In this document: one piece after another, positions 14,268-59,718 of the stretch
Numbering within the stretch: the first letter of the stretch is position 1
How the letters are laid out: every line of letters starts with the position of its first letter
Virus record (IMG/VR): IMGVR_UViG_3300021431_004525
DNA: 64,000 nt
Origin: a virus
Lineage: Duplodnaviria > Caudoviricetes
Direction: 5' to 3' (one strand)
Program-made: the position numbers and the translations under genes
The notes under the pieces: generated by a model
Database searches by the model: none
Seen by the model: only the letters and a program-made list of their open reading frames with translations
Told to the model about the DNA's origin: nothing

Positions 14268-15017
14268 ATGAATAAGAGACTTATAAGACTAACAGAATCA
14301 GACCTTCATAGGATTGTAAAAGAATGTGTAAAACGTCTTATTAATGAAGATAAAGAATATGTAAGTGTTACTGATTTCAATTATGATGGTAAAGAGTTAT
14401 ATGATGTAGGCGATGGTGATTCATTTTGTTATCTCCCTTGTGACATATATGGTACGCCGAAACTATATTATGCAGATTGTCACTTTTCGTGCGCACTACA
14501 ATCACTTGAAGACATAATCTATTCTTTTTATAAGGGTAATATAGAGAGTTTAATAGATGAAGACGATATACATAGCATAGCAGAAGAATTATGGCTTAAC
14601 TGCATAAGTGAGCCTGGAAGGGTATTTTATAAAAAGTATATCGTAGTTGGCTTTGATGGACACATACCATCTTGTGAATATGTTAAAGGTGTGATTGAAT
14701 ATTTGGGCGGTAATTCAAGCAATTATTGTGTAGTATATAATGAAGAAGATTCAGTAAAAGAAATACCTTGTAATTTTTTTCTTGCTCAAGGGATAAATGG
14801 GAAAGATAAACCAACTATTATGGAAGTTCCAAGAGAACTCAAGATGATTTATGACAAGATGCACACAAAAAGGGATGCCGTTGATAGAAAATTTCCTATG
14901 AATATGACAAGGGCTGAATATTATTGGCTTACAAGGCAAGAAAACAAAAAAAGTTATGATAAAGTAATAATAGAAGTTATCAATCAATACTTAAAACAGA
15001 ACTTGGTATTAAACTAA
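14268..15017 (+). CDS. leader-tagged putative internal virion protein
   Basis: N-terminus MNKRLIRLTESDLHRIVKECVKRLINE. Confidence 0.75.
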   Translation: MNKRLIRLTESDLHRIVKECVKRLINEDKEYVSVTDFNYDGKELYDVGDGDSFCYLPCDIYGTPKLYYADCHFSCALQSLEDIIYSFYKGNIESLIDEDDIHSIAEELWLNCISEPGRVFYKKYIVVGFDGHIPSCEYVKGVIEYLGGNSSNYCVVYNEEDSVKEIPCNFFLAQGINGKDKPTIMEVPRELKMIYDKMHTKRDAVDRKFPMNMTRAEYYWLTRQENKKSYDKVIIEVINQYLKQNLVLN

Positions 15018-15047
15018 ATGAGCAACCTTGATTGGCTGCTCATTTTT
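15018..15047. terminator. bidirectional terminator
   Basis: ATGAGCAACC-TTGATT-GGCTGCTCAT-TTTT between convergent genes. Confidence 0.7.
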
Positions 15048-15052
15048 GTATA

Positions 15053-15742
15053 TTATTGATATCTCATATAATCTGCTAATAATTCTCTACCTCTTTCAGT
15101 TTCAACATATGCAGCACCGTTTTCATCGAATTCAATTTCCATCCAGTCAGTTGGTTCTCCGCCATAGAATTTAAAACGTGCTGAATCGCCAGACGGATGA
15201 ATTTGCACCTCATGTCCTCCTGAATTAGTGACAGTTCTATATCCTGTTGGTTTAAATTCATCTGATTCTTTCAATTGTTTATTAGTGCTTTCCGCCAACA
15301 CTTCTGTTATACATTCTTTAATAAGATTATTAAGTTGGCTTTCGGTCATATTGAATTTTTGTTTTTTCGATTCCGTATATTTCTGTTTTAAGTAATTATC
15401 GTATCTTTGTCCTGTTTGTCTTGGTGTGCCTTTTGTCATTTGTGCTATATTTGCTACGTCTTTATCGTTTGACATTGCATCCATACCAAGTTGTCCTTTT
15501 AAATCATCTGCGTTAATGTTGCTATCAAGATATGAGCCTACATTGGCATCTTGCTGTTGCTGTGCCAATCTATTTTTATTATTGTCGTTAAATTCTTTCC
15601 ATGAGGCATCTATCTGCTGTTGTTTGGTCATAGGTGTCTGTGGCTGCATATCATATCCATTGAAACCACTTTCTTTAAGTGCTTTGGTTATTGCTTCTTT
15701 GACAATATTAACAAATTGTTTTTGTTTTATTTTCTGTGCCAT
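15053..15742 (-). CDS. leader-tagged modular protein
   Basis: IVKEAITKALKE, then internal MTESQLNNLIKECITEVLAE and QLKE. Confidence 0.75.
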   Translation of the reverse strand: MAQKIKQKQFVNIVKEAITKALKESGFNGYDMQPQTPMTKQQQIDASWKEFNDNNKNRLAQQQQDANVGSYLDSNINADDLKGQLGMDAMSNDKDVANIAQMTKGTPRQTGQRYDNYLKQKYTESKKQKFNMTESQLNNLIKECITEVLAESTNKQLKESDEFKPTGYRTVTNSGGHEVQIHPSGDSARFKFYGGEPTDWMEIEFDENGAAYVETERGRELLADYMRYQ

Positions 15743-15803
15743 TTATATATGTCGATACATATGTTTTTATTTTAGGTAATTATATATTATTTGACCCGAC
15801 TTG

Positions 15804-16061
15804 TTAAATTCTTGATATAGAATCTTTCATTCTAATATTAGATAATATCCCTTGTAGAGTATTTACCATAGAATGTATCTCTTGCCTATATGAATAGGGG
15901 ACTTTGCCCTCTAAATCATATAAATTATGCATTTCATTTTTTATAAGCTGTTCATAATTAGCATCATAATCATAAATATCACTTTCGTTAAGGATATTTT
16001 TAATTGCTTCTTTAACTACTTTATGAACATCTTGTTCTGTAAGTTTAATTCTTTTCTTCAT
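15804..16061 (-). CDS. leader-tagged small protein
   Basis: MKKRIKLTEQDVHKVVKEAIKNILNE. Confidence 0.75.
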   Translation of the reverse strand: MKKRIKLTEQDVHKVVKEAIKNILNESDIYDYDANYEQLIKNEMHNLYDLEGKVPYSYRQEIHSMVNTLQGILSNIRMKDSISRI

Positions 16062-16112
16062 ATATCTTATATTAAATTATTATTGGGTCTAATTCTATAT
16101 AGATGCCTTATT

Positions 16113-18116
16113 TTATTTGTTTTTTGAACGTCTGTCGAATACTTCCTTTTCATCTACGATGTAGACTCTTGGGCTTCTTACGCCAGTTTTCTCTTCGATG
16201 TAGTACCAAACCATGCTTTCAACTTCTTCTTCGATTGCATCCATTGGCATATCAGGAGAAGATACCGCAACCTCTACTGACACATCATATCCGTCAAATC
16301 CATCTGGCTGAAGTATGATTTGTCTTACCAAGACTGATGAATAGTTATTGGAATTGTCAATATATTCATCCTTTACTGATTGTAATTCTTGTACTTTCTC
16401 AGGTGTTAACTCATCGAACATTCCGTCGACGTTAAGTTTCATAATTGCACCATATGAATAGTCTGACAAATCGTCATCCTCTTCTGGATACCACGACTCT
16501 TTAAGTTGTTTTTTCAGTGATTTGATTTTATTAGTAAGTGGTGTTGTATCTTTTCCATCATCCTCATAGTCAGAAATTTGTTGACGTAATTTCCTTATTT
16601 GTCTGTTAATTTCTTTATTCGCCTCATCTCTTTTTAACCTATGTTTTTTAGAGTCTTCGTTATCCTGTGATGAATGTACTTGGCCTGTATCTATTTCCTC
16701 ATGGATTTTTCCTTCGTTTGCAGTTACTTTTTCAACTTTGTTAAGAGGAACTGACATTAATGTCCATGTTTTACCATCTTTCTGATAATCGACATCACAT
16801 GTTTCTTCCCATGTCATAAGGTGTGTACCGAAATCTTTAATGACACCTTCTATATTTTGAGTTCTACCGTGTACTATTACTTTATCACCGGTTTGGAATT
16901 GTCCGTCAGATGATTTGGCATGATATGTACCGTTGGCTTGTTGCATTGCCTTTATATATTCTCTCATATCATAACTCATTTCATCATCTTGTTCTTGTTT
17001 CCAATGTTCATCATCGTCTGACAAATCATCGATGGCTTCTTTAACCATATTTCTTATTTTGCTTTCCAATGCCGCTGTTGGGTGTTTAATTTCCTTTCTT
17101 TTTGAAAGAACCAATCGACGTTCTCTGTCTGATGGTTTATTCCAATGTACGCCTTCCTCTGCCCAATCAGGTTTGTTGAGGAAATTATACCAGTAACCAC
17201 CTTCTCCACCCCATGCGATGAGGTTATTTGGGTCTGTAGCATTCCACCCTTTTGTTACGTCCCAATATTTAGCCTTTTGAATGTACGGTTTTATCTGATT
17301 AAGGTCATCGACTAACATGCTTTCATTTCCTTGCCCTTCAATATAACAATGGAAAAGGTATTGACCGGTACTTTCTCTCAGATGTCTTTTAGATTCATCA
17401 AATGCACGGTTAAGGGAACCTTTACGATGTAACGGACGTTTATCAGCAGCAGCCATTGCACGTTTATCGGCACGTTTCATATTTTCTTTTTCTTTATTGT
17501 GCATCTTATCTTGGTCTTTTCTCGCAAAATAAGCATCTACGCCATCATGTGCAAATTTATGTGCGTTGATTCTGTAATTGTTTGAGAAATCATCCGGATG
17601 ATTTGGTTTGTCATAATTTCCGGCATATACTTCTGATAACACCTTATTTACGGTTTCCCTTATTTTAGACTCAAGTGGGTGTTCTCTTTCTGCTTCTGCT
17701 TTACCATAGTCGGCAAGTGCATCAAAACCGGGTGCTACATCATAAGGATTGAGATTGAAGTCATTCACATAGTTGTCAACAGTATCTGAGAAAGCGTTGA
17801 ACTTATCAAGTTCTTCTGCGTTTTTACCGTATCTTGCCTGTGTGTCCTTTGCTTGGTCATCGATTTCTCTCCAATCGGAATCCATTTCTTCTTTCTTACG
17901 GTCAGGATAAACAGGACCTTCAGGACCGTTATTGATATTATCATATTTAGCGAGTGAGTCAAGGAAATCATCATCCATTGTTTCCCCGGTTACACTTGCA
18001 AGGTTATTCATATCGTTCATATAGTCGCCTGATACGCCATTGGCATCAATAGTTTCGGACAATATTTTATTGATATGTTCCTTTAATTGTTCTCTATTTA
18101 ATTTCTTATTAGCCAT
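16113..18116 (-). CDS. leader-tagged multi-module polyprotein (667 aa)
   Basis: Repeated junctions ILSE, LESKIRETVNKVLSE, HLRE, LESKIRNMVKE, IHEE, QLKE. Confidence 0.8.
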   Translation of the reverse strand: MANKKLNREQLKEHINKILSETIDANGVSGDYMNDMNNLASVTGETMDDDFLDSLAKYDNINNGPEGPVYPDRKKEEMDSDWREIDDQAKDTQARYGKNAEELDKFNAFSDTVDNYVNDFNLNPYDVAPGFDALADYGKAEAEREHPLESKIRETVNKVLSEVYAGNYDKPNHPDDFSNNYRINAHKFAHDGVDAYFARKDQDKMHNKEKENMKRADKRAMAAADKRPLHRKGSLNRAFDESKRHLRESTGQYLFHCYIEGQGNESMLVDDLNQIKPYIQKAKYWDVTKGWNATDPNNLIAWGGEGGYWYNFLNKPDWAEEGVHWNKPSDRERRLVLSKRKEIKHPTAALESKIRNMVKEAIDDLSDDDEHWKQEQDDEMSYDMREYIKAMQQANGTYHAKSSDGQFQTGDKVIVHGRTQNIEGVIKDFGTHLMTWEETCDVDYQKDGKTWTLMSVPLNKVEKVTANEGKIHEEIDTGQVHSSQDNEDSKKHRLKRDEANKEINRQIRKLRQQISDYEDDGKDTTPLTNKIKSLKKQLKESWYPEEDDDLSDYSYGAIMKLNVDGMFDELTPEKVQELQSVKDEYIDNSNNYSSVLVRQIILQPDGFDGYDVSVEVAVSSPDMPMDAIEEEVESMVWYYIEEKTGVRSPRVYIVDEKEVFDRRSKNK

Positions 18117-18215
18117 GACTAAATTTTTATTATAACGTTATATAATAATAAATAGGTGTAAATGGTTAAATGTTAAGCAATTTAATAGCATTTTCGAGGT
18201 GTGACTGTTGTTCTT

Positions 18216-18401: not shown

Positions 18402-18462
18402 AATGCAAAGATAGTATTTTTCCTTGATATAATCAAATGATTTTAGTTAATTTAATATAATT

Positions 18463-20780: not shown

Positions 20781-21865
20781 TGTTCTAATCTATTAAAATG
20801 ATTATTAAAATAATCTCGTCCATACAATTGTATAATTTGTTTTGGCCATAATTCATTTTTAATCAAGTCATATGCATTATCTGATGGAGGATTTTGAAGC
20901 ATTCCAAAAGACTCAAGTGATTGTTTTACTTCTTCACGACTGTTATAATAGTCTTTTTCATTTTTCCAAATCCTATCAATCACATCATCAAATGATTTAA
21001 CATCCTCATTAGGATAGAATAGTTTTTCTTTTCTTATCTTGGAATATTTCCAATTTCCCTTATAATCAGTACCTTCACACCATTCTTTATTCTTGAATTT
21101 CTTCAGAAATTCCCTTACACTCATAGGTTGATAGTTATCACTACTATGCACATATCCATCCTCATGGGGTAATTTAACCCATATACGTTTAATCATATTT
21201 GGATTTAAGTCGCCCATAAACAATGCTTGATGTTCTGTATTATTGAAAATTCTGTCAGCCATTTCCGGTTTATCTGAGTTTCTGACATGGTTCATTGAGA
21301 TTTCGCGTCTGCGATGTTTATCATCGTAATAGTAATCATCCTCTGTATTTAATGCATCCTGACGATATTGCATCTTCTGTGCGTTTCTTTCTTCGCCGTT
21401 TTTAAATGGCATTGGGTTTGTTCCTTGTCCGAAGTAAGAACCTTGTCCGTTCCATATAGGGCTTTCCAAATCAGAGCCTTTTGCTGTAAACTCAATAATA
21501 GCCATACCTGAATTAGATACACCGAATTTCTTTGCCGTTTCAAAATCAGTGGTTACGAAGATTCCAAGTGGATTCATTCCACTTTCATAAGAATACTGTC
21601 TTGGATGGTATGTCCTGCCGGATGTGCCGTTAATTGCTATATCACAAGCGGTTTTCAATTCACACCCATGAAATACACGTATTCTGCTATCATCGGTAAT
21701 CGGTTCTTGGTTATATATGTCTGACCAATGGCTTTTCTGTACTTTACCGTTGTATTTCTCACCCCTTGTATCTATATATCTGACTTCGTTAAGTGCCTCA
21801 CAAACCACTTGTTGTATTACGTTTCTTAGTGTACTTTCTTTTATTCTTATCTTATTTTCAGTCAT
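20777..21865 (-). CDS. leader-tagged ADP-ribosyltransferase-like protein
   Basis: IKESTLRNVIQQVVCEALNE leader; RVFHG...GIFVTTDFETAKKF ART-like core; start reassigned to MTENK, downstream of late motif 21909. Confidence 0.6.
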   Translation of the reverse strand: MTENKIRIKESTLRNVIQQVVCEALNEVRYIDTRGEKYNGKVQKSHWSDIYNQEPITDDSRIRVFHGCELKTACDIAINGTSGRTYHPRQYSYESGMNPLGIFVTTDFETAKKFGVSNSGMAIIEFTAKGSDLESPIWNGQGSYFGQGTNPMPFKNGEERNAQKMQYRQDALNTEDDYYYDDKHRRREISMNHVRNSDKPEMADRIFNNTEHQALFMGDLNPNMIKRIWVKLPHEDGYVHSSDNYQPMSVREFLKKFKNKEWCEGTDYKGNWKYSKIRKEKLFYPNEDVKSFDDVIDRIWKNEKDYYNSREEVKQSLESFGMLQNPPSDNAYDLIKNELWPKQIIQLYGRDYFNNHFNRLEQ

Positions 21866-22629: not shown

Positions 22630-23976
22630 ATGGCACAACATATAAATAAAGACGATTTGAAGAAAATCATTAAGAAGATTATTAAGGAATCTGTTGGTAT
22701 TCCATCAGAGGAAAACTATTATATTAGCGTAATGGTTCCAAGGATAAAGTCTTGGATGGATGAAGTTTATCAAGATTGGGGCGGTATCAATGCTGTTTCA
22801 CCTGAAGCATTAACTGATTTCAGCAACCGTAATGACTATGAAGAGTCTCTTGATGCTTTTGCACACGAATTTAATGTAGATAGAGAAGAACTTAGACCAG
22901 CATTTGATAAAGCAATTGAGATTGCACATAGTAAATTAAAGGAAGACTTACTTGGAGAGGCTAAGTTTGTTAACCAATTCACACCATATACAGATGATGA
23001 GAAAAGGACAAATTTTGAATATTTGAAAACCGGTTTTGGTAGAAGTCCTGAAGAAAGAAATCCGTCTTATGCAGCGGCAAAAAAAGCAGCAGAAGAAAGA
23101 CGTAAGCAAAAAGAGGCACAGAAACAAAATGGTGAAGTGAGCGAAACTATACATTATACCGCAGAAAGAATGGCAGCAGACAACAACTATCGCATGAAAT
23201 GGAATGAAAAATATCTTAAGCCATTACTTGATAAATGCGACACAATATTAAACGGTTCTGAAAACGCTTCTGTACAAGAAATTATCGACCTTTACAAAAG
23301 GCTTAACACAATTAGAAGCTGTAACCCAATTAAGTATGATGTAAGACTAATAGAGTTACAGGATGAGATTAAGGATAGATTGGAAAAGTTGGTTGAATTT
23401 ATTAGACAAATGATGACTAATAGGCCAAATGAATCCAAGAAACGTGTTAATAATCAAACATTAAATTGTAATAGAAATATGAATAAGAAACTTATAAGAT
23501 TAACAGAAAATGACCTTCACAAGATTGTAAAAGAGTCTGTTATTAGAGTATTGAACGAGAAACTCGTATATAGAAATGCAAAATTTTACACTCCGACACC
23601 AATACCAAGTGACGGTGGACCAATGTATAACGATACTTTTGCTTTTAAGGAATTTCAAAAACTTATAGATGGGTGTAATAGACAATTGAAATTTCCTGTA
23701 CTTAACAGAAAACAAGGCATAGATGCGAGTGAATTCCTTATTCAACAGTTTGAGAATTGGGTAAATGAATATGGCAAATATATTGTATCTAATCAACCAA
23801 TTGGAAAATTAGTTAAAGGAAATGGAATTCAAAATAAGTTCGGAAAAATAGAATATGTGAAAGGTGATGGGGGATACGCAAGAATTTTTGCTGATTGTGT
23901 TAATAGTGGGACACCGTATTACGATGAAGTAGCAGATACTTTTGACCCGTATCCCGATGAAGAAGTGTATTTTTAG
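22630..23976 (+). CDS. leader-tagged multi-module polyprotein
   Basis: INKDDLKKIIKKIIKE at N-terminus; internal MNKKLIRLTENDLHKIVKESVIRVLNE. Confidence 0.8.
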   Translation: MAQHINKDDLKKIIKKIIKESVGIPSEENYYISVMVPRIKSWMDEVYQDWGGINAVSPEALTDFSNRNDYEESLDAFAHEFNVDREELRPAFDKAIEIAHSKLKEDLLGEAKFVNQFTPYTDDEKRTNFEYLKTGFGRSPEERNPSYAAAKKAAEERRKQKEAQKQNGEVSETIHYTAERMAADNNYRMKWNEKYLKPLLDKCDTILNGSENASVQEIIDLYKRLNTIRSCNPIKYDVRLIELQDEIKDRLEKLVEFIRQMMTNRPNESKKRVNNQTLNCNRNMNKKLIRLTENDLHKIVKESVIRVLNEKLVYRNAKFYTPTPIPSDGGPMYNDTFAFKEFQKLIDGCNRQLKFPVLNRKQGIDASEFLIQQFENWVNEYGKYIVSNQPIGKLVKGNGIQNKFGKIEYVKGDGGYARIFADCVNSGTPYYDEVADTFDPYPDEEVYF

Positions 23977-29426: not shown

Positions 29427-29762
29427 TTAGGCCATATTGCTTTCTGCTTCGACATGGAAACATTTAGGGCATTGCCATATTCCAAATGCTTGATATTCAG
29501 TTTTATCCCATTTTCCATCCTCATCACAATGACCAATTACTCTGTTATCTTTTTCATCATGTTCATCATATATAGACATAAGGAAAGGCATTTGCGTACC
29601 ACATTTAGGACATTTTTTGAATTTTTTGAAATCCGCCTGTGTCGTATGTGTATTAGCGTCCTGTTCTTCTGCTGTTGAAACCTTTATTGCTTCAGTTAGG
29701 TTTTTTACTTGTTGTTCGCTAATAACAACCGTATGTTTATTTAAATTAGTAAAAAGTTTCAT
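29427..29762 (-). CDS. leader-tagged zinc-ribbon protein
   Basis: VVISEQQVKNLTE; CPKCG...CPKC. Confidence 0.7.
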   Translation of the reverse strand: MKLFTNLNKHTVVISEQQVKNLTEAIKVSTAEEQDANTHTTQADFKKFKKCPKCGTQMPFLMSIYDEHDEKDNRVIGHCDEDGKWDKTEYQAFGIWQCPKCFHVEAESNMA

Positions 29763-29774: not shown

Positions 29775-30971
29775 TTATTTTTTATAATATTCATCCAAAA
29801 TGGCATCACTTAAACCGTGGTCTAATATTACGATTAAATCTTTGTTATAACGTCTTACCATGCCATAATTTGCAATTCTTGTTAAATCACCCATTGGGGC
29901 TTGGTAACTAGTCATATAGTCATATATGTCATGTAGGGTATCATTATTTTCAATAAGATTGTAGAATTGTTCATCTGGCATTTTAGAATAAGATGTTCTA
30001 CGAAACCTGTTTCTATCATACTCATTATAACAAGAGCCAATGAACGAAACAAATTCATCCCATGTCATACCAAGGCAATGCTTAAAATCTTCAGGTTTAG
30101 CCGGCAATACATACTCACATACTATCCAACTATCATTGGCATCATCACAATCAAAAATTTTTGGAAAGCAATCGAGGGACTGTTTATACCATTCTGATTC
30201 ATGTTCATTTTGAGCGATGCCTTTTTGGTTTTTAGCAAGTTTAAGACACGTTTGGTCATTTATTTGAAAAACTACTCTTGAAGAACCGTTGCCTATTATT
30301 TTTCCAAGATGTTCCTTACAATATGCAAGACGCTGATTAAAAGAATTAATAGATGATAACATCTGTAATGAAAACTGTGAATCTTGTGCTTCTGTTAAAC
30401 GATTTCTGCTTTCATCGGTACGATATACAAGTTTTGAAGGTTGCATTGATTGTATTGGATTTGGTTTCAAAATATACCAAGTATTACCTCCATCAAGGCT
30501 AAATTCCCAGAACGTTTTAGACATTTGTCCTGTACGTTTCGATGTCCCTTGAAATGTTTCAGATGTGATGGTCCTATATTTAACTGAACGTCTGTTTCTA
30601 GTTGCTGCGCCATTAATAGTATCTATAGAACGTCTTAATTCTTTTTCTGCTCCGGCACCACGTCCGAATAAACTTAATGTTGATTCAATTTTGTCATTAC
30701 CGAAATTTTTAATTTTGTATATAATGAATTTGTTATCAGAGACAACAATATTATTACCGGAACGGAAATTCTGTCCATTTGTATCAAATGTGGATACTTG
30801 GGAAACCACGTCATGTGCCGCATGACCACCATTATCAGCGTATAATGGGTTATGTCCAAGATTCCTGCTTACATCTGTATGTGAGTTATGTGGCGTTGCC
30901 GTTGTGTCAAATCGCCCTTCATTTATAAATTCTCTTATTACTTCTCTTACGATATTTCTAATATTTTCCAT
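29775..30971 (-). CDS. leader-tagged two-module protein with C-terminal protein-kinase-like domain
   Basis: IRNIVREVIREFINE; after RLTE: IGNGSSRVVF, LKLAK, NEHE, GDLTRIANYG, ILDHG; start reassigned to MENIR. Confidence 0.7.
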   Translation of the reverse strand: MENIRNIVREVIREFINEGRFDTTATPHNSHTDVSRNLGHNPLYADNGGHAAHDVVSQVSTFDTNGQNFRSGNNIVVSDNKFIIYKIKNFGNDKIESTLSLFGRGAGAEKELRRSIDTINGAATRNRRSVKYRTITSETFQGTSKRTGQMSKTFWEFSLDGGNTWYILKPNPIQSMQPSKLVYRTDESRNRLTEAQDSQFSLQMLSSINSFNQRLAYCKEHLGKIIGNGSSRVVFQINDQTCLKLAKNQKGIAQNEHESEWYKQSLDCFPKIFDCDDANDSWIVCEYVLPAKPEDFKHCLGMTWDEFVSFIGSCYNEYDRNRFRRTSYSKMPDEQFYNLIENNDTLHDIYDYMTSYQAPMGDLTRIANYGMVRRYNKDLIVILDHGLSDAILDEYYKK

Positions 30972-38603: not shown

Positions 38604-38668
38604 ACTTGTTTATATGGTCAAAAAATAGTATCTTTGCATTAAATGTATTGCAAAGATATTTATATTAT

Positions 38669-39055
38669 ATGTGTGATATGAAAAAAAATATAGTGATAAA
38701 CGAGGATATTGAGAGGGAAATTATAGGTGAAATCCTTACGGAAGGTTTCTCTCCTGATAGGGAAAAAGTACTTCTTGTTAAAGACTATCTTGACAAGAAT
38801 TTTGAGCCTGTTAAAATGGATGATATCGACGCAAATGGGTATCCAGTAAAAGACAAGATGGTAAATATGTTAAGCAGTGGGCAACCAATAAAAACCATGT
38901 CACTCAGAGAATTTTTACTATTGCTTGACGATAGATTCCATGATATGATGACTGATGATAGCGATAGAAAGAAATTTCTTAAACAAATAATTAAGGAGTG
39001 GTATACAGGAAAGTTGGCAAAGAATGGACTTTTGTCCGTCAATTTCATTAAATAG
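38669..39055 (+). CDS. hypothetical protein with leader-like N-terminus
   Basis: KKNIVINEDIEREIIGEILTE; late motif at 38657; start reassigned. Confidence 0.7.
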   Translation: MCDMKKNIVINEDIEREIIGEILTEGFSPDREKVLLVKDYLDKNFEPVKMDDIDANGYPVKDKMVNMLSSGQPIKTMSLREFLLLLDDRFHDMMTDDSDRKKFLKQIIKEWYTGKLAKNGLLSVNFIK

Positions 39056-39090: not shown

Positions 39091-39629
39091 GGGAACTATA
39101 TATGTGTTGACTCCAAAGTAATATTTATTTAAAAAATAACTTGAATAATACGTATAAAACGATATGAAGAGATTAGTAAAATTAACGGAAGGAGACCTGC
39201 ATAGGATTGTAAAAGAATCGGTAAAAAGGATATTGAGAGAGGGTTTGAATGACTACGACTATTATTTTAGTGTCCCAGATTATGATTATGACCAAAATGA
39301 ACCGTGGGAAGACACATTTGGTGTGAAAGAGACCATAAACGGATTGGAAATATATGACTACTCGAATGAACTCATATGTGTACTTAGAGGTAAACGGCTA
39401 AGAGATTACAAGACCGGACCTGACCAAGCAGGTGCGGATATGTCAAAGATTAATGATGACAAGTTGATTGCTGATATGAGGAAAGCACGTGGTTATTGAT
39501 TAAGCCACTTAGCACAGCCTTAGTTCATCACATATGGGAATCATCCGATAAACTTGCCGAACATGCCCAAAAAGCGTTCCTATTGGGACACTTTTTCTTG
39601 CGTTTAGTGTCAACAGATATATAGTTCCC
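39091..39629. mobile_element. 539-bp cassette bounded by 21-bp terminal inverted repeats
   Basis: GGGAACTATATATGTGTTGAC (39091-39111) versus GTCAACAGATATATAGTTCCC (39609-39629), 20/21 match; encloses late motif, one gene and a terminator; no transposase. Confidence 0.6.
39164..39499 (+). CDS. leader-tagged small protein
   Basis: MKRLVKLTEGDLHRIVKESVKRILRE. Confidence 0.8.
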   Translation: MKRLVKLTEGDLHRIVKESVKRILREGLNDYDYYFSVPDYDYDQNEPWEDTFGVKETINGLEIYDYSNELICVLRGKRLRDYKTGPDQAGADMSKINDDKLIADMRKARGY

Positions 39630-52044: not shown

Positions 52045-52686
52045 ATGAGAAAAGTTAAAATAACAGAAGAACAAAGGCAGTATGCTTTAAGTGAAGGTAT
52101 AGTACTTAATGCCGATGTCGACGCTGCCGGTGGCGATGTTAAAAAAGCGGTTGATACAACAAAGCAACAGGCACAGAAATCAGGTGTTGATGTTAAAAAG
52201 GCAACAATTCAGATACCGCCTTCGAATGAAAGTAAAGTCATTACCAAGAAACAGATTATGGAAAATAGATTAAACGAATTTAAGAAAAATTCAGACTATT
52301 ATTCTTTGAGCGAATTTCTGAAACGTATCGGTAATAAGAAAATAAATGAAAGTGGTCTTACCAACACACAGATTAGAAACATTACGGGTATTACAGATGA
52401 TGATGAATTGAATGCCGCTGCTGAAACAGAAGAAAAAGAACAACTTGAAAGCAATATTTGGAATGCAATTGCCCAAATGGCCGGTGGAAACCCAAGAAAG
52501 ACATCGTTCGATTTCGGACAATTGGCCGAAATGCTTAAAACACGGTTTAATATGAAATATATTGGAACTGATGAGAATCAAGAATGCCATACATTTACCG
52601 ACGGTGTTAATAAACTTGACATTTTCCCATCAACATACTATCCTAAACAAAGAACAATAACACTTTATAATATGAGCGTATATTAA
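52045..52686 (+). CDS. leader-tagged head-associated protein
   Basis: MRKVKITEEQRQYALSE; extra module after KINE. Confidence 0.75.
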   Translation: MRKVKITEEQRQYALSEGIVLNADVDAAGGDVKKAVDTTKQQAQKSGVDVKKATIQIPPSNESKVITKKQIMENRLNEFKKNSDYYSLSEFLKRIGNKKINESGLTNTQIRNITGITDDDELNAAAETEEKEQLESNIWNAIAQMAGGNPRKTSFDFGQLAEMLKTRFNMKYIGTDENQECHTFTDGVNKLDIFPSTYYPKQRTITLYNMSVY

Positions 52687-53983: not shown

Positions 53984-54076
53984 ATATAAAAGTCACTGAT
54001 TTACAGTGGCTTTTTTGTTTTAGATATATAACTTTTGATTTTTTGCTCCTATTTATATAATTTTAATAAAAAGAGC

Positions 54077-55957
54077 ATGAGTAAACAAAGTGAATATATA
54101 AAATGCTATCAAGATAAATCGAGGATTTACTTTATCGAAAATTATCTTTACACATTCAACGCTATGGAACGTAGTGAAGTACCGTTCTTATTATTCCCAA
54201 GACAAAAGGAGTATTTAAGGGCGTGTGCGGAGGATAATGAAGTTGTAACAGTAAAATGCCGTCAGTCAGGTATTTCCACTGTTTCTGCTGCATACATTTG
54301 CGGTCAATGTGTATTTGCCAATAAGAAGTCACCGGAAACCATTCTATGTATAGCAAATAAACTTGACCAAGCAATTGAATTGACGAATAAGATTGTTAAT
54401 TTTCTTGACCAAGTACCAAGATGGATGTGGGGCAGTGACTATTATTCACCTGACCCGGATAGTTCTAAAAATACAAAATCGATTTATATAAAAAGAAATA
54501 AAAACTACATTGAACTTTTTAACGGCTGTAAAATTTACGCCCGTGCATCCGGTCCTCACTCAGCTCGTGGTGTCAGTAGTACGACTATACTTTGTCTTGA
54601 CGAGGCAGCGTTCTTGGCTGATTCTGTTGCGGCATATACGAGTGCCAGAGCATCTCAGTCAGCGGTTGAGAATCCGAAATGCCTGATGATTTCCACACCT
54701 AACGGTAAAGACCCATTATATTATAAAACTTATTCACAAGCATTAAGAGGTGAGAATAATTTCAGAATTGTTGAATTTAAGTTCTATCAAGACCCTCGTT
54801 ATAACCGATATCTTAAATGGTATAAGAAAGACGAAAAAACCGGAGAGATTCTATGGGATGAAGACCCTGTAATAGATAAGAAAGGCAACATTGAATATAA
54901 CGAAGAAAGGTGGAGGAATCTTGAAAAGAACGGATGGACACCGACTTCACCTTGGTTCGAGGATATGTGTAAATCGTTCAATAATGACGAACAGATGATT
55001 GCACAAGAGTTGCTTGTTTCGTTCCTAGGTTCTTCGGATAACGTTGTACCACCGGAAGTCATTGAAATGCATCAGAATGAAAATGTTATCCAAATAACCC
55101 CGGATTGGCCGTTAAGAGACCAACTTATCGCAGAAACATGGATATGGCAAGACCCGATTCCGGGACACCGTTACATCGTATCAGTAGACCCTTCATCCGG
55201 TAGTGGAGAAGATAGAACCGCAATTGAAGTGATTGATGTGGATGCCATCGATGAGAATGGAACACCGTTCTTTGACCAAGTACTTGAATATAACGGAAAA
55301 ATCAACGGTGAGGAAATAGCCGGTTTGGTTGATAGATATGGTCATATATATAATGATGCGTTGGTAGTCGTTGAAGCCATCGGAGGATATGGCGATGCCG
55401 TTATCTTGACCTTGATGAACCTAGGTTATCCCAATTTATACTATGATGAAAATGCGTTGAAGAACTATACATTGAAAGTAACCGCTTCCAAGTTCAATAA
55501 AAAGGCGGGTGAGGCATTGCCAGGTTTCAGAAGTAACGGTTTACGTATTCAGATGATTTCGAACTTTGTTGAAATGCTTAAAAACAATTCATTCAGAGTT
55601 AGAAGTACACGTGTTATCAGCGAATTGGAAACTTGGGTGTTCAAGAACGGAAGACCGGACCACCAAGACGGAAGCCATGATGATTCACTTACATGCCTTG
55701 CTATGGGATTGTTCATTGCCGTATTCTATATGTTACGTAATGAAAAGGCTAAACAAAAGGACACGCAAATTGTTAAGTCATGGTATGTCAATAACGGTAA
55801 CAATTCGGATTACAGAAGTGGTAAACTTGAAGACAAGGTTGTAATGTCATCGCCAAAGAAAATGCCGTTCTACAGTAATGTGCAAATGGCTAAGAAAGAA
55901 AAGGCAAGATTTAATGCAATGCTTTTGCTCGGTGGCTTCGGAAGGAAGAAACATTGA
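54077..55957 (+). CDS. terminase large subunit
   Basis: KCRQSGIST (Walker A), LCLDEAAF (Walker B), ISTPNG, QE...F, VSVDPSSG, HDD; start reassigned to MSKQ. Confidence 0.92.
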   Translation: MSKQSEYIKCYQDKSRIYFIENYLYTFNAMERSEVPFLLFPRQKEYLRACAEDNEVVTVKCRQSGISTVSAAYICGQCVFANKKSPETILCIANKLDQAIELTNKIVNFLDQVPRWMWGSDYYSPDPDSSKNTKSIYIKRNKNYIELFNGCKIYARASGPHSARGVSSTTILCLDEAAFLADSVAAYTSARASQSAVENPKCLMISTPNGKDPLYYKTYSQALRGENNFRIVEFKFYQDPRYNRYLKWYKKDEKTGEILWDEDPVIDKKGNIEYNEERWRNLEKNGWTPTSPWFEDMCKSFNNDEQMIAQELLVSFLGSSDNVVPPEVIEMHQNENVIQITPDWPLRDQLIAETWIWQDPIPGHRYIVSVDPSSGSGEDRTAIEVIDVDAIDENGTPFFDQVLEYNGKINGEEIAGLVDRYGHIYNDALVVVEAIGGYGDAVILTLMNLGYPNLYYDENALKNYTLKVTASKFNKKAGEALPGFRSNGLRIQMISNFVEMLKNNSFRVRSTRVISELETWVFKNGRPDHQDGSHDDSLTCLAMGLFIAVFYMLRNEKAKQKDTQIVKSWYVNNGNNSDYRSGKLEDKVVMSSPKKMPFYSNVQMAKKEKARFNAMLLLGGFGRKKH

Positions 55958-56005
55958 AAAACATTGGATAGATACTTATATTTATATTAAATAGGATTGT
56001 ATACA

Positions 56006-58063
56006 ATGCCAACAAAACCAACGATATTTCAAAAATTGACAAATATATTGTCAAATAGCAATGACATACAGACGGCCGTCAAAAAGGTAAATTCATATGG
56101 CCTTGATGACTCTGATATCCTTTTTAGAACTAAGAACAAGGATGAGTATGACAGTAAACTTAAGCAGCTAAGACAAGGCCATCTTCTTGCAAAGCAGTGG
56201 AAAAAAGCAACTTATGAATTAACGAATAAATCACTTGCCGGTCTAAACGAGGTAAAAATGATGTATCGGGATGCTGACTTGATGGATTTATTTCCGGAAA
56301 TCGGTACAGCACTTGATATAGTTTCAGAGGAAGCATGCTTTATCAAGAAAGATGCCTTTATGGTTAATGTCACGTCTAAATCAGAACGTGTAAAGTCGAT
56401 TATACAAGACTTACTTGTGAATAGGCTTCAGATTAATGTAATGCTTCCTATGATTTGCCGAAGCATGTGTAAGTATGGCAACACGTTTATGCTGCTTGAC
56501 ATTAACGATGAAAACGGTGTCGTTAACTGGAAACAGTTACCGGTTTATGAAATCGAGAGATATGAAAACGGTATGGAAAATCCATATGCCGGTGCTTATG
56601 TTAATCTCAATAATATTAACTTGAACCAAACAGATTCAACAAAATTCGTGTGGGTTGGCCAATCTGAATTTATACCATATAGGAATTGGCAGATAGCGCA
56701 TTTCAGATTACTTTACGATTCATTACTATTGCCGTATGGTGTATCATATCTTAATAAGGCAAGGCGACACTGGCGCATGCTTTCAATGATGGAGGATATG
56801 ATGCTGATTTATCGTCTTGAACGTTCAATTGAAAGGCGTGTGTTTAAGGTAAACGTTGGTAATATAGATGAGGATGATGTTCCTGCATATGTAGAGGACA
56901 TTGCAAATAATTTCAAGAGGACACCAATCATTGACCCAATGACCGGTCAATTGGACTTGAAGAAAAACATCTTGAATGTATCAGAAGATTTCTTCGTTCC
57001 GGTGCGTGATGAAAATGCAAACAGCCCTATCGAGACTTTACAAGGTGCTCAGAATATGACAGCGATGGACGATATTAAGTTCGTTCAAAATAAAGTCGTA
57101 ACGGCATTGAGAGTGCCTAAATCATTCTTGAATTTTGAAGAGGCTACTGGTGATGGTAAAAACTTGTCATTACTTGATGTAAGGTTTACAAGAACGGTGA
57201 ACCGTATTCAGCAGGCATTACTTATGGAGTTGAATAAGATTTGCATAATTCACCTTTATTTGTTAGGTTTCGAGGACGAACTTACTAATTTCAGCCTTAC
57301 GATGAATAACCCATCTTCTCAGGCCGAAATGCTTGAATTGGAGAACATGGCAAAGAAGGTGACAACGGCAAAGGATGCAATATCAGATGCCGGTAATGGA
57401 ATACAACTCATGTCATGGACAAGGGCTTGTAAGGAAATAATGGGATGGTCAGATAAGGAAATCGAAGAGAACTTACAAGAAATAAGACTTGAAAAGGCTC
57501 TTGCAGCAGAACTTGAAAAGACGGCACAGATTATCAAACGTACAAGAATATTTGATAAGGTCGATAATATCTATGGTGAGCCGGGTGCTGAATATTCAGC
57601 CGGTGCTCCGGGAGAAGACGGAGAAGAAGGCGGAATGTCAGGTGGCGGCGGTGCCGGAGGATTCGGCGGTGGCGCAGTAGGAAGCGAGGACTTCGATTTC
57701 GGTGATGAAGAGGGCGAAGAAACCGGTTCAGAAGGTGAAATGGATATGAACACTGCCGCAGATGAAGAAGGTACTGATATGGGCGGTGGTGAAGAAACAG
57801 AAGAAACCGAACCTACAACTTCAACAATGGGTGAAACGTATATGAGGAATATGTTGAAGAATATCATTGATGAACAAAGGGAAATGCAGAAAGATATAGT
57901 TAGGAAAAGTAAGAAATATACAGGCAAACTTGCTGAAAGGAAAAATAAATACTATAAGGAAAAGAACCGTATAAACGAAAATGTGCCAATATATCAGAAA
58001 AATTTCCTGATTAATGAAGATTTAAATTCAATGATTAAACAATTGGGTAACTTAAACGATTAA
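56006..58063 (+). CDS. portal protein (T4 gp20-like)
   Basis: SYLNKARR...MMEDMMLIYRLERSIERRVFKVNVGN, EDFFVP, IETLQG, ALRVPK; acidic Gly-rich tail. Confidence 0.92.
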   Translation: MPTKPTIFQKLTNILSNSNDIQTAVKKVNSYGLDDSDILFRTKNKDEYDSKLKQLRQGHLLAKQWKKATYELTNKSLAGLNEVKMMYRDADLMDLFPEIGTALDIVSEEACFIKKDAFMVNVTSKSERVKSIIQDLLVNRLQINVMLPMICRSMCKYGNTFMLLDINDENGVVNWKQLPVYEIERYENGMENPYAGAYVNLNNINLNQTDSTKFVWVGQSEFIPYRNWQIAHFRLLYDSLLLPYGVSYLNKARRHWRMLSMMEDMMLIYRLERSIERRVFKVNVGNIDEDDVPAYVEDIANNFKRTPIIDPMTGQLDLKKNILNVSEDFFVPVRDENANSPIETLQGAQNMTAMDDIKFVQNKVVTALRVPKSFLNFEEATGDGKNLSLLDVRFTRTVNRIQQALLMELNKICIIHLYLLGFEDELTNFSLTMNNPSSQAEMLELENMAKKVTTAKDAISDAGNGIQLMSWTRACKEIMGWSDKEIEENLQEIRLEKALAAELEKTAQIIKRTRIFDKVDNIYGEPGAEYSAGAPGEDGEEGGMSGGGGAGGFGGGAVGSEDFDFGDEEGEETGSEGEMDMNTAADEEGTDMGGGEETEETEPTTSTMGETYMRNMLKNIIDEQREMQKDIVRKSKKYTGKLAERKNKYYKEKNRINENVPIYQKNFLINEDLNSMIKQLGNLND

Positions 58064-58094
58064 AACACCTATTTATTATATAAAAGAACGTAAA

Positions 58095-59282
58095 ATGGCT
58101 GAATTTAATGATACATACCGCAAGGCCGGAATATTGATGCAAAGTGCCTTGAAAAAATATGAAGCAGGTGATATTGAGGGCGGAAACAGAGACCGTCAAA
58201 TGGCTAATGAAATGTATGATAAAGCCGAAAATCAAGTAGATGCTACGGCAATGTTATATGGCGAAAGCCGTAATTTCGGTACTATATATAAGGTTTTTGA
58301 AAGTAATACCTCAAAATTATTCACTGATAAGAAAGGTAACGGCAAGTTGAAGAAAATACTCAAATTCATCAAGGAAAACAAAACCTTGAAATCGGAATTT
58401 GACGCATATAATGCATTGATTTATCCGGAATCTGTAACAAATGCAGAGGAATACGTAAATGAAGCAATCTCATTGATTCCTAATTTGGATAAGAAGACCG
58501 TCGTAGAGAACAATCAGAAATTCATAGACTTAATCCATGAACTGAAACTTAATGAAATGGTCGAAATACCAGACGATGACTTGAAACTTTATGAAGCAGT
58601 TGAATACATCGTTTTAAATCCAAAGACATTAGATAACGTGAATGAGTTTGTCAATGCCAAGAAATGCATAACAGAACACATTGAAAAGAACTGCAATTAT
58701 AGCAATGTCACCAATGAAACCGTTGACTCAGTTTATGATAAAGGCGTTAAAGAGGTAGATGAAAACTATCAGAAGAACCTTAACGAAGATGAGAAAATGC
58801 TTGTTGAGAAATTAGCAAGTATTAATACAAAGGAGGCATATTTCGACGCTGCCAAACTTGATACGTTGAAAATGCTTGACACACAGCTTAATGAATGTAA
58901 CGAGGAAAATCGTGAGGGTCTTCAGCAGATTATTGAAAACATCAGTAAGAAGGCATACGACGAAAATAAGTTTATTGCCGATGCCGCAGAATTTAGGGAG
59001 ATAAAGAATACTTTACAAGAGCAAACAATGCCTAAGGCACTTGTACAGACACTTGCTACGGAACTTGCAAAGAAATATCGCGGAGAACCATCGAGGAATG
59101 AAGATTGGATAATCGGTGAATTATCATATAATACTCCGGATGACGTGGATACTGAAAAAATCATAAAGGATGTCAAAGAATTGTCACAGAGATATAATCC
59201 TGAAGATGTCGGCTATATGGTGATTAGTAATATGATGGCCGGAAACTATAGAGGATTTTGGGCTGAAAGCAAAGAACGTTGA
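58095..59282 (+). CDS. head-module hypothetical protein
   Basis: 395 aa between portal and protease; late motif; C-terminal extra module after LQE. Confidence 0.75.
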   Translation: MAEFNDTYRKAGILMQSALKKYEAGDIEGGNRDRQMANEMYDKAENQVDATAMLYGESRNFGTIYKVFESNTSKLFTDKKGNGKLKKILKFIKENKTLKSEFDAYNALIYPESVTNAEEYVNEAISLIPNLDKKTVVENNQKFIDLIHELKLNEMVEIPDDDLKLYEAVEYIVLNPKTLDNVNEFVNAKKCITEHIEKNCNYSNVTNETVDSVYDKGVKEVDENYQKNLNEDEKMLVEKLASINTKEAYFDAAKLDTLKMLDTQLNECNEENREGLQQIIENISKKAYDENKFIADAAEFREIKNTLQEQTMPKALVQTLATELAKKYRGEPSRNEDWIIGELSYNTPDDVDTEKIIKDVKELSQRYNPEDVGYMVISNMMAGNYRGFWAESKER

Positions 59283-59361
59283 TGATGCACGTAAATATTT
59301 TGAAGAACATCCGAATATAGATTGGGAATTACAAAAATAAACTAACATATAATATATTAAA

Positions 59362-59718
59362 ATGAAATACACTATAAAAGAATCAGAATTAAAAAGTCTG
59401 GTAAGAAAACATATCGTTGAGGCTCTTAAACAACGTGAAAAACGTTCAAATGAAGATAGGCTGAAACAGTTTATAAAAGAATCAGACCTTAGCAGAATTG
59501 TGAAAGAGTCTGTGAATAGAGTGATTAAAGAAGAACATTACAACGATGATGCAGCTCTACCTTACATAACTAAAGCATTTGATGAATTAATCAATAAAAT
59601 AGGCAATGCTGCTGTTGCTATTAATGGTGAAAGTTGGGATGCTGCAATATCTAATGACCCATTTTCAAAAGCTTTAAAACTTATTTATCAAGCAAAACGT
59701 GTATTGCTTAATGCTTAA
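59362..59718 (+). CDS. double-leader-tagged small protein
   Basis: IKESELKSLVRKHIVE and IKESDLSRIVKESVNRVIKE. Confidence 0.8.
   Translation: MKYTIKESELKSLVRKHIVEALKQREKRSNEDRLKQFIKESDLSRIVKESVNRVIKEEHYNDDAALPYITKAFDELINKIGNAAVAINGESWDAAISNDPFSKALKLIYQAKRVLLNA

What the first reader, a model, noticed from the sequence alone, without database searches (positions are those of the whole stretch)
14268..59718. Shared leader plus L/I-x-E sites: a modular capsid-cargo tagging system
Seen: at least 12 otherwise unrelated ORFs carry variants of one amphipathic helix, (K/R)(L/I)(T/K)ExxLxxIVKExVxxx(L/I)xE. Clearest cases: 14268 RLTESDLHRIVKECVKRLINE; 15804 KLTEQDVHKVVKEAIKNILNE; 22630 internal RLTENDLHKIVKESVIRVLNE; 39164 KLTEGDLHRIVKESVKRILRE; 59362 IKESDLSRIVKESVNRVIKE. 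Weaker versions occur in 15053, 16113, 20777, 29427, 29775, 38669 and 52045. Most follow the same TATTTAT motif as the head genes. Known: T4 gp21 cleaves after L/I-x-E, and T4 internal proteins use a cleaved N-terminal capsid-targeting sequence. This phage encodes a gp21-like protease, and its capsid protein has HLIYE-A near the N-terminus. Inference: the leader is a portable prohead-targeting signal, removed at maturation to release diverse effectors that are injected with the DNA.
Basis: partly seen in the sequence, partly recalled or inferred. Interest (0 to 1): 0.9.

Follow-up and report, generated by a model that had tools for sequence, protein, structure and literature searches.

The report
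Shared head-loading leader on phage proteins
A giant gut or rumen phage with a T4-type head starts many unrelated late proteins with the same roughly 26-residue peptide, which ends in its head protease's cutting motif; this is most likely a much-expanded version of T4's "load into the head, then clip off" tag, but nobody has measured packaging or cleavage.

Summary
Five ORFs carry a near-identical leader (36-46 bits; best of 20 shuffled proteomes 9.6). Two more reach 12-26 bits, three are supported by their own protein families, and two (16113, 38669) stay unproven.

The peptide sits at the N-terminus, or at internal joints that look like gene fusions. Its consensus is M-K-K-x-I-R-L-T-E-S-D-L-H-x-I-V-K-E-S-V-K-R-V-L-x-E. 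It is conserved as protein, not as DNA.

It is very widespread. 9,518 cluster representatives match in a 1.84-billion-protein library. Related 350-410 kb phages carry about 10-16 copies each.

Evidence for a T4-like capsid-targeting propeptide:
- The phage encodes a gp21-type (S77) protease and a gp23-type capsid protein with a conserved L-[ILM]-x-E|A site.
- Tagged genes share the TATTTAT promoter motif of the head genes and never the host-type promoter.
- In two cargo families the leader length varies, but it always ends [LIFV]-x-E right before the conserved domain.
- Tagged genes cluster in the head module.
- A 95-96% identical relative has a different cargo behind the same leader.
- Two cargo domains fold as an ADP-ribosyltransferase (like T4 Alt) and a kinase.

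Packaging, cleavage and injection are inferred only. The scan noted the same tag earlier on other genomes. I found no paper describing it.

The parts
14268..14348 (+). Leader (27 aa) at the N-terminus of ORF 14268-15017 (249 aa). TATTTAT at 14228.
   Evidence: 45.6 bits; promoter motif.
15984..16061 (-). Leader at the N-terminus of ORF 15804-16061 (85 aa). Second gene of the minus-strand unit that starts at 18154.
   Evidence: 36.6 bits.
15290..15349 (-). Internal leader copy (residues 132-151) of ORF 15053-15742. A weaker N-terminal copy lies at 15671-15742.
   Evidence: 26.0 and 11.7 bits.
18054..18116 (-). Claimed weak leader at the N-terminus of ORF 16113-18116 (667 aa). Not demonstrated.
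   Evidence: No N-terminal profile hit, only an 8.4-bit internal stretch. The gene does have TATTTAT at 18154.
21785..21865 (-). Leader of ORF 20777-21865 (start revised to the Met at 21865). The mature part is an ART-fold domain that starts V-R-Y-I-D.
   Evidence: 12.6 bits. 158 homologues keep [LIFV]-x-E just before V-R-Y-I-D. Fold results.
23479..23559 (+). Internal leader of ORF 22630-23976, preceded by a relic M-N-K-K start (a fusion joint). A weak N-terminal copy lies at 22630-22689.
   Evidence: 41.1 and 5.7 bits. Relic Met statistics.
29691..29762 (-). Variant leader (class M-K-L-F-x-x-x-x-K-x-x-x-I-S-E-x-Q ... L-x-E) of ORF 29427-29762.
   Evidence: The same variant recurs on many homologues of another family. 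Loose-pattern hit.
30918..30971 (-). Short leader (18 aa) of ORF 29775-30971. An internal R-L-T-E|A joint at 30390-30401 separates domain A from the kinase-fold domain B.
   Evidence: Orthologues score 7-20 bits and keep x-x-E|G-R-[FY]-D. Joint. Fold results.
38669..38743 (+). Possible short leader of ORF 38669-39055. Unproven.
   Evidence: Loose-pattern hit only. TATTTAT at 38657.
39164..39241 (+). Leader of ORF 39164-39499 (111 aa). The whole unit is flanked by 27-nt inverted repeats at 39091-39117 and 39603-39629.
   Evidence: 43.4 bits. TATTTAT at 39122. Inverted repeat.
52045..52095 (+). Short leader (17 aa; I-T-E ... L-x-E|G) of the conserved head-module protein p213 (52045-52686).
   Evidence: Both Glu sites are kept in 11 orthologues while the residue before each Glu varies.
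59362..59532 (+). Double leader of p118 (59362-59718), which lies between the portal-side gene p395 and p150 in the head module. The strong copy is at 59461-59532.
   Evidence: 36.4 and 5.8 bits. Cargo at 59486-59811 is replaced in relative L001.
60374..61093 (+). Prohead protease, T4 gp21 family.
   Evidence: Pfam Peptidase_S77, 81 bits. PHROG 207. PDB 5JBL E=1.4e-14.
61206..62690 (+). p494: acidic, helical-ended, scaffold-like protein in the gp22 position, with many conserved [LI]-x-E sites.
   Evidence: Position and composition.
62756..64000 (+). Major capsid protein (gp23 family); it runs off the window. The candidate maturation site L-I-Y-E|A is at 62924-62938.
   Evidence: Pfam Gp23. The site is kept in 14 relatives while the residue before the Glu varies.
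54077..58063 (+). Large terminase (54077-55957) and portal (56006-58063), each behind a TATTTAT motif.

Best explanation
The peptide is a portable N-terminal propeptide that works like the capsid targeting sequence (CTS) of phage T4's internal proteins and Alt.

Proposed sequence of events:
1. Tagged genes are transcribed late, from the promoter class used by the head and tail genes.
2. The amphipathic leader helix gives the protein affinity for the assembling prohead core, so it is enclosed by the gp23-type shell.
3. The gp21-type (S77) protease then cuts after the leader's terminal hydrophobic-x-Glu. It may also cut after the L-T-E in the first half of the leader, and at internal leader copies in fused proteins.
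4. This releases mature cargo inside the head. Cargo includes an ADP-ribosyltransferase-fold enzyme and a kinase-fold enzyme, and probably leaves with the DNA.
5. Because the leader is shared, recombination within it swaps cargo, which makes a large and fast-changing repertoire.

Shown here:
- the leader exists, is conserved as protein and is N-terminal;
- the protease and capsid families;
- conserved Glu sites;
- promoter co-class with the virion genes;
- clustering in the head module;
- one cargo swap.

Inferred: targeting, cleavage and injection.
For: 1. The tag is real and portable. The five clear copies score 36-46 bits against at most 9.6 in shuffles, and the bodies are unrelated. DNA copies differ at synonymous sites.

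2. It is N-terminal. 133 of the 150 best library hits, and 48 of 53 ORFs in related loci, start with it. In a logo from 228 instances, position 3 is L/I in 96% and position 5 is E in 98%. Position 20 is L/I in 94%, the residue before the last Glu varies, and conservation collapses after that Glu.

3. The processing machinery is T4-type. Peptidase_S77 scores 81 bits. It aligns to T4 gp21 with His and Ser at the two positions where the deposited chain has Ala. The gp23-family capsid protein keeps L-[ILM]-x-E|A-T in 14 relatives. The protease N-terminus, the scaffold-like p494 and p213 also keep [LI]-x-E sites.

4. The leader boundary coincides with the domain boundary.
- In 120 listed homologues of ORF 20777, the leader ranges from about 8 to 32 residues and always ends [LIFV]-x-E just before the invariant V-R-Y-I-D.
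- In the 29775 family, stand-alone copies of domain B each have their own leader ending L-x-E|A.
- The fused window protein has R-L-T-E|A at that same joint.

5. Timing. TATTTAT lies at -25 to -42 of terminase, portal, protease, scaffold-like, capsid and tail-fibre genes, and of every tagged transcription unit. There are 44 occurrences in the window, 18 of them in the -15 to -60 windows (about 3% of the sequence). 18 other genes have host-type TTTG-N-TAnnTTTG promoters and none of those is tagged. The motif also precedes head genes in a 354.8-kb relative. It precedes 27 of 48 leader ORFs against 176 of 588 controls.

6. Location. Variable tagged small genes are inserted between terminase, portal, p395, p150 and protease in relatives.

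7. Modularity. Against L001 (95-96% nucleotide identity in the flanks), identity runs to 59485, inside the leader. It is absent over 59486-59811 and resumes at 59812.

8. Cargo type.
- The ORF 20777 model (pLDDT 91) matches only ADP-ribosyltransferase folds: Foldseek probability up to 0.97; Z up to 6.8, rmsd 4.1 over 117 residues.
- Domain B of ORF 29775 (pLDDT 92) matches kinase folds at probability 1.00, E=3.5e-4.
- T4 Alt is a head-packaged, gp21-trimmed ADP-ribosyltransferase (PMC9026906).

9. Co-occurrence. 7 of 9 leader-bearing viral records that are at least 90% complete encode S77. One of the two exceptions also lacks a terminase match, so it is likely a fragment.
Against: - No virion proteome, N-terminal mapping or cultured phage exists, so targeting and cleavage are analogy.
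- The terminal Glu in my logo is partly forced, because I kept only hits that reach the end of the profile.
- Hydrophobic-x-Glu is common in charged helices. Observed/expected is 1.2-1.45 in this phage's ordinary proteins.
- The expected depletion of such sites in cargo is seen in library families (0.64-0.93) but not in the window's own tagged proteins (1.43).
- Solitary intact copies sit in low-G+C islets of bacterial chromosomes that have no phage head nearby. A 73-kb, 42% G+C element with a resolvase carries one copy and no S77.
- The promoter control set is biased toward late regions.
- The ADP-ribosyltransferase match has only middling Z.
- The leader shows no sequence likeness to T4's 10-residue CTS.
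Confidence: 0.62

Rival explanations
1. The leader targets proteins to the head, or to another virion part, as a permanent docking or oligomerisation helix and is not removed. The Glu endings would then be a helix feature, not cleavage sites.
For: The leader is an amphipathic helix in the model of ORF 20777 (residues 10-25). Late promoter class and head-module location fit equally well. Internal copies stay conserved. Hydrophobic-x-Glu is generally over-represented in this phage.
Against: - Leader length varies four-fold within one family while the hydrophobic-x-Glu stays fixed just before the mature domain.
- The same three-residue rule marks the capsid propeptide site, with a variable middle residue.
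- Conservation stops abruptly after the Glu.
Confidence: 0.15
2. The leader is a recognition tag (degron or adaptor-like signal) for the phage's own Clp-type unfoldases. It would control the level or folding state of late proteins and have nothing to do with the capsid.
For: The window encodes a ClpA/B-like two-ring AAA+ protein (36183-38603) and a ClpX-like one (46336-47502). Two tagged genes lie directly downstream of the first. The leader's start (polar, T or hydrophobic, hydrophobic, basic, hydrophobic) resembles ClpX N-terminal motif 1 as I recall it from Flynn et al. 2003; this is memory, not a test. An earlier scan note reports ssrA-like Ala-Ala tails on this phage's early proteins.
Against: - An N-terminal degron does not explain conserved internal copies, the fixed Glu boundary, or the preference for the head-gene cluster.
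- Only the first five residues would be needed, yet about 22 are conserved.
- The motif resemblance is loose.
Confidence: 0.08
3. The shared stretch is mainly a DNA-level recombination or mobility element (cassette boundary), and the peptide is incidental.
For: A cargo-swap breakpoint lies inside the leader. The 39164 unit is flanked by 27-nt inverted repeats. T4-type phages shuffle genes through shared regulatory cassettes (PMC2839356).
Against: - Copies differ freely at synonymous positions while the peptide is kept; mean DNA column identity is 68% with the amino acids conserved.
- The peptide is kept in phages whose portal is only 34-48% identical.
- The reading frame and N-terminal position are always kept.
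Confidence: 0.03
4. The leader serves some other cellular address, such as membrane association, export, or binding to a host factor.
For: It is an amphipathic helix. Solitary copies persist in bacterial chromosomes without a phage head.
Against: It is highly charged, with no hydrophobic core or signal-peptidase site. It is restricted almost entirely to jumbo phages with T4-type heads, and none of the 18 genes with host-type promoters carries it.
Confidence: 0.06

Closest known systems
[quoted passage not shown]
   Same: - A short N-terminal peptide shared by otherwise unrelated, fast-evolving proteins.
- It ends in hydrophobic-x-Glu, the gp21-type cleavage rule.
- The phage has gp21-, gp23- and gp20-family head genes in T4-like order.
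- One cargo is ADP-ribosyltransferase-like, as Alt is.
- Cargo is replaced behind a conserved leader.
   Different: - The leader is about 26 residues (with short forms of 13-17), not 10, and has no sequence likeness to the T4 CTS.
- It has two Glu sites.
- It recurs internally at fusion joints.
- There are about 10-16 copies per genome and about 9,500 protein clusters overall, against a handful in T4.
- Tagged genes are scattered across the genome as well as in the head module.
- Nothing has been shown experimentally.
Long propeptides of ejection and inner-body proteins in giant phages phiKZ, 201phi2-1 and SPN3US, cut by gp21-related proteases after a short motif ending in Glu (PMC5694885, PMC7411985, PMC10052503)
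   Same: Jumbo phages that load many proteins into the head and trim them with a gp21 homologue after Glu. Paralogues there share conserved N-termini (SPN3US gp53 and gp54).
   Different: Those propeptides are often over 100 residues and are not one portable consensus shared by dozens of unrelated proteins. The cleavage motif there has a small residue rather than Leu/Ile two positions before the Glu.
Mobile regulatory cassettes (promoter plus stem-loop) that mediate modular gene shuffling in T4-type genomes (PMC2839356)
   Same: Short shared sequences at gene starts act as recombination points that exchange the downstream gene between close relatives.
   Different: Here the shared element is largely a coding leader kept at the protein level. 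Only the 39164 unit also shows flanking inverted repeats.

Membership tests
T4-type CTS / gp21-processed head cargo system | The phage encodes a gp21-family (Peptidase S77) prohead protease with catalytic His and Ser. | tested here: met
   Pfam PF03420, 81 bits against a cut-off of 27. Aligns to T4 gp21 (PDB 5JBL) at E=1.4e-14. The query has His and Ser where the deposited chain has Ala. That these are the catalytic pair is my recollection.
T4-type CTS / gp21-processed head cargo system | gp23-family capsid protein with an N-terminal propeptide ending in Leu/Ile-x-Glu. | tested here: met
   Pfam Gp23 matches from residue 69. L-[ILM]-x-E|A-T is conserved in 14 relatives while the middle residue varies. 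Cleavage itself is not testable here.
T4-type CTS / gp21-processed head cargo system | The targeting peptide is at the extreme N-terminus of otherwise unrelated proteins. | tested here: met
   133 of 150 library hits and 48 of 53 locus ORFs. Bodies are unrelated.
T4-type CTS / gp21-processed head cargo system | The peptide ends at a gp21-type site directly before the mature domain. | tested here: met
   Logo. Boundary kept despite leader-length polymorphism in two cargo families.
T4-type CTS / gp21-processed head cargo system | Expressed with the head genes (late). | tested here: inconclusive
   Same TATTTAT upstream motif as the head and tail genes, and no host-type promoter. Timing is inferred from promoter class. 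No transcript time course exists.
T4-type CTS / gp21-processed head cargo system | Sequence homology of the peptide to the T4 CTS. | not tested
   The T4 CTS is only 10 residues (PMC9026906) and no T4 CTS sequence was compared here, so I claim functional analogy only, not homology.
T4-type CTS / gp21-processed head cargo system | The peptide is necessary and sufficient for packaging, and is removed in the head. | not testable with these tools
   Needs virion mass spectrometry or reporter fusions. The phage is uncultured.
ADP-ribosyltransferase fold (cargo of ORF 20777) | Structural match of the core to solved ADP-ribosyltransferases, plus conserved NAD-site residues. | tested here: inconclusive
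   Model pLDDT 91. All top rows are ADP-ribosyltransferases, but Z is at most 6.8 (rmsd 4.1, 117 aligned) and Foldseek E is at best 0.009. Invariant His66, near-invariant Tyr93 and invariant Glu94 and Glu125 in the family. Pfam gives nothing for this protein. The protein atlas points to DarT/PARP/Arr at 0.88.
Protein-kinase-like fold (domain B of ORF 29775) | Bilobal kinase fold with a Gly-rich loop, a conserved Lys and a catalytic/metal-binding Asp. | tested here: met
   Model pLDDT 92. Foldseek probability 1.00, E=3.5e-4, to aminoglycoside phosphotransferases, ULK1 and CK1. G-x-G-S-S-R loop; invariant Lys50, Asp168 and Asp190. Activity and substrate are unknown.

The most novel reading that the evidence does not exclude
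The solitary, intact leader-tagged genes in low-G+C islets of Prevotella and Segatella chromosomes could be host-captured 'Trojan horse' proteins. By keeping the phage's head-loading tag, they would be packaged into the proheads of an infecting jumbo phage and sabotage its progeny. That would be an anti-phage defence that exploits the phage's own cargo address.
Probability: 0.04. Interest if true: 0.85.

Novelty: new variant of a known kind. Interest (0 to 1): 0.62.

Why it matters
If the reading is right, T4's capsid-targeting principle has been scaled up in the jumbo phages of gut and rumen Bacteroidales. It would be a general address label carried by roughly ten thousand protein families. 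That would mark out, from sequence alone, the set of proteins these uncultured phages deliver into Prevotella and Bacteroides cells. It would be a ready catalogue of candidate host-takeover and counter-defence enzymes (ADP-ribosyltransferase-like, kinase-like and many unknown folds).

It would also give a defined peptide and protease pair for loading foreign proteins into phage heads that target abundant gut bacteria, as was done with T4. And it would explain how cargo repertoires turn over, by recombination inside the leader.

The claim is directly testable with one protease, one reporter fusion and mass spectrometry.

Tried and rejected
- Complex prediction of the leader (alignment A3) with the scaffold-like p494 (alignment A5): score 0.00, below the mark, controls not run. 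This is no verdict either way.
I therefore could not inspect the genomic context of the 150 best library hits. I used IMG/VR and GTDB pattern scans instead.
- The search for related loci would not accept the leader alignment because no stretch was conserved enough.
- tblastn of a 32-residue leader against 50,697 deposited phage records gave only a chance hit. A profile search then showed a divergent variant in LR756508. It found nothing significant in Flavobacterium phage immuto or Microcystis phage Mel-JY01.
- Pfam and PHROGs give no family for the tagged proteins, apart from phrog_4301 (unknown function) on ORF 29775.
- List of cluster members: none of the ten sampled hits has a functional name.
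- DNA-level repeat explanation: rejected because of synonymous variation.
- Depletion of [LI]-x-E in cargo as a signature of protease exposure: seen in library families, not in the window's own tagged proteins. I treat this as inconsistent.
- Literature searches found no description of this leader. The Jug-phage paper does not mention it.


Full report
**What the window is.**
Earlier notes of this scan place the window in a roughly 392-kb phage of gut or rumen Bacteroidales. It holds a T4-type head module:
- large terminase, 54077-55957, and portal, 56006-58063;
- a conserved unknown gene, p395;
- the small tagged gene p118;
- p150;
- a prohead protease, 60374-61093;
- an acidic scaffold-like protein, p494;
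- a capsid protein that runs off the window.

The protease matches Pfam Peptidase_S77 at 81 bits, PHROG 207, and T4 gp21 (PDB 5JBL) at E=1.4e-14. It has His and Ser at the two positions where the deposited chain carries Ala. The capsid protein matches Pfam Gp23. This gene order is conserved in 15 related IMG/VR loci found through the portal.

**Checking the observation.**
Translation and pattern scans confirm the five clear cases at the stated places. I built a profile from the five, iterated it on the window plus related loci, and scored all six-frame segments.
- The five score 36-46 bits.
- The internal copy in 15053 scores 26, 20777 scores 12.6, and the N-terminal copy in 15053 scores 11.7.
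- Twenty shuffled proteomes never exceeded 9.6 bits. That is 8 real hits at 10 bits or more against 0 expected.
- The remaining 'weaker versions' fall below that line.

All-against-all BLASTP shows similarity confined to the leader. The DNA copies differ freely at synonymous sites, so selection acts on the peptide.

A logo from 228 distinct instances reads M-(N)-K-K-x-I-R-L-T-E-S-D-L-H-x-I-(I/V)-K-E-S-V-K-(R/K)-(I/V)-L-x-E.
- There are two hydrophobic-x-Glu triplets, L-T-E and (L/I)-x-E.
- The residue before the last Glu varies.
- Nothing is conserved after it.
- The final Glu is partly forced by my selection of full-length hits.

**Reach of the motif.**
- Five related contigs each carry 2-11 matches.
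- A complete 354.8-kb relative has 16 matches in about 13 ORFs.
- A profile search of 1.84 billion cluster representatives gives 9,518 hits at E<=0.001 and 1,297 at E<=1e-10.
- Of the best 150, 133 start with the leader and most carry 2-4 copies.
- Internal copies have a relic Met within six residues in 34 of 95 cases, against 15% expected. This points to fusions of neighbouring tagged genes.
- None of the ten sampled clusters has a functional name.
- An exact degenerate pattern finds 113 stretches in IMG/VR, many on 280-413 kb contigs.
- A 484-kb deposited huge phage (LR756508, portal 34% identical) has a divergent variant placed right at the start codon.
- The nearest cultured T4-like relatives (Flavobacterium phage immuto, Microcystis phage Mel-JY01) have none.

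**Is it a protease-removed propeptide?**
Four lines of evidence bear on this.

1. The capsid protein keeps L-[ILM]-x-E|A-T-(A/T)-(S/A)-D-N-S-G-S-F in 14 relatives, with the middle residue varying (Y, S, K, T). This is the signature of a site defined by a hydrophobic residue two places before a Glu. It sits where the Pfam Gp23 model begins. The protease N-terminus, p494, p514 and p213 keep similar sites.

2. Within the family of ORF 20777 (158 homologues), the N-terminal extension ranges from about 8 to 32 residues, from the full leader to short forms. Every listed member still ends [LIFV]-x-E immediately before an invariant V-R-Y-I-D.

3. ORF 29775 is a two-domain protein. Stand-alone homologues of its second domain each carry their own leader ending L-x-E|A. 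The window protein has R-L-T-E|A at exactly that joint. These families also show that the short forms on 29775, 29427 and p213 (52045) are recurrent classes and not noise.

4. A loose N-terminal pattern matches 8 of 81 window genes against 0.17 expected.

**Timing and place.**
TATTTAT occurs 44 times in the window. Eighteen occurrences lie 15-60 nt upstream of a gene start, in about 3% of the sequence. These precede terminase, portal, p395, protease, p494, capsid and tail-fibre genes. They also precede the leading gene of every tagged transcription unit.

Eighteen other genes have the Bacteroidota host-type TTTG-N17-21-TAnnTTTG promoter, and none of those is tagged.

The motif also precedes head genes in the 354.8-kb relative. 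It precedes 27 of 48 non-redundant leader ORFs against 176 of 588 control ORFs (odds ratio 3, p=3e-4). That control set is itself rich in late genes.

In relatives, variable tagged small genes are inserted between terminase and portal, portal and p395, p395 and p150, and p150 and protease.

At the p118 site, the window and L001 are 95-96% identical up to 59485, inside the leader. They are unrelated over 59486-59811 and identical again from 59812. This is a cargo replacement behind a retained leader. L003 has yet another cargo there.

**Cargo.**
- The mature part of ORF 20777 gives a confident model (pLDDT 91). Its structural neighbours are all ADP-ribosyltransferases, at modest scores: Foldseek probability up to 0.97; Z up to 6.8, rmsd 4.1, 117 residues aligned. 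The protein atlas points the same way. Some homologues are fused to Pfam ART-PolyVal domains.
- Domain B of ORF 29775 (pLDDT 92) is kinase-like at Foldseek probability 1.00.
- T4 Alt, a head-packaged, gp21-trimmed ADP-ribosyltransferase, is the obvious parallel (PMC9026906).

**What does not fit neatly.**
- Single intact copies lie in low-G+C islets (28-34% against 41-46% in the flanks) of bacterial chromosomes. These include Segatella bryantii DSM 11371 and Prevotella sp. MA2016, the latter next to an IS1595 transposase.
- 13 of 301 genomes of that family have a match, usually one.
- A 73-kb, 42% G+C element with a resolvase has one copy and no S77.
- These look like lateral captures, but they show the tag can persist without a T4-type head.
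- Depletion of [LI]-x-E in cargo is inconsistent.
- The phage's Clp-type unfoldases allow a degron reading, which I rate low.

**Comparison and verdict.**
The closest known system is the T4 CTS with gp21 processing (PMC9026906, PMC5694885). This is a functional analogue in a phage that has the same head machinery. It differs in having a longer, unrelated, two-site leader, internal joints, and a far larger repertoire.

I found no paper describing it. Earlier notes of this scan reached the same reading for the same or similar tags on other genomes. Those are unverified AI notes, not independent evidence.

I put 0.62 on the targeting-plus-cleavage model. The existence and portability of the leader are near certain.

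Noticed in passing
window 39091-39117 and 39603-39629: 27-nt inverted repeats (89% complementary) enclose exactly the promoter motif, the tagged ORF 39164-39499 and its downstream end. It looks like a MITE-like cassette around one cargo gene.
   Followed up: partly
L219 9933-10196 (Segatella bryantii DSM 11371 chromosome); L221 9796-10824 (Prevotella sp. MA2016); L220 9937-10797: Solitary, intact leader-tagged genes sit in 1-3 kb low-G+C islets among housekeeping genes of bacterial chromosomes, one of them next to an IS1595 transposase. 13 of 301 genomes of the family have a match.
   Followed up: partly
window 47613-49733: The first gene of the conserved head module (706 aa, behind TATTTAT) combines weak ART-PolyVal and nucleotidyltransferase matches. 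It resembles the 'polyvalent proteins' delivered by phages and conjugative elements. It has no leader.
   Followed up: no
window 36183-38603 and 46336-47502: The phage encodes a ClpA/B-like double AAA+ protein and a ClpX-like protein. Neither match includes a peptidase partner in this window.
   Followed up: partly
No TATTTAT was seen upstream.
   Followed up: no
L225-L228 (LR756508.1, 484-kb uncultured huge phage): A diverged leader family (M-R-L-T/S-E-x-K-L-R-x-I-V-K-E-E-I-x-x-V-L-x-E) heads several small ORFs clustered at 189-195 kb and 219 kb of that genome.
   Followed up: partly
window 59277/59278 versus L001 13281-13443: The near-identical relative L001 has about 160 extra nucleotides at the 3' end of the p395 gene, just upstream of the swapped p118 cargo.
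   Followed up: no
window 40394-41590: A TnpB/IS200-IS605-type transposase gene (PHROG 506, E=3e-137) sits between tagged genes and the tail-fibre gene.
   Followed up: no
L087 (IMG/VR contig of 72,928 bp, rated 92% complete): A 42% G+C element with a serine recombinase carries one leader-tagged 122-aa gene next to a homologue (43% identity) of the window's early-region ORF 7084-7608. It has no S77 protease or T4-type terminase match.
   Followed up: partly
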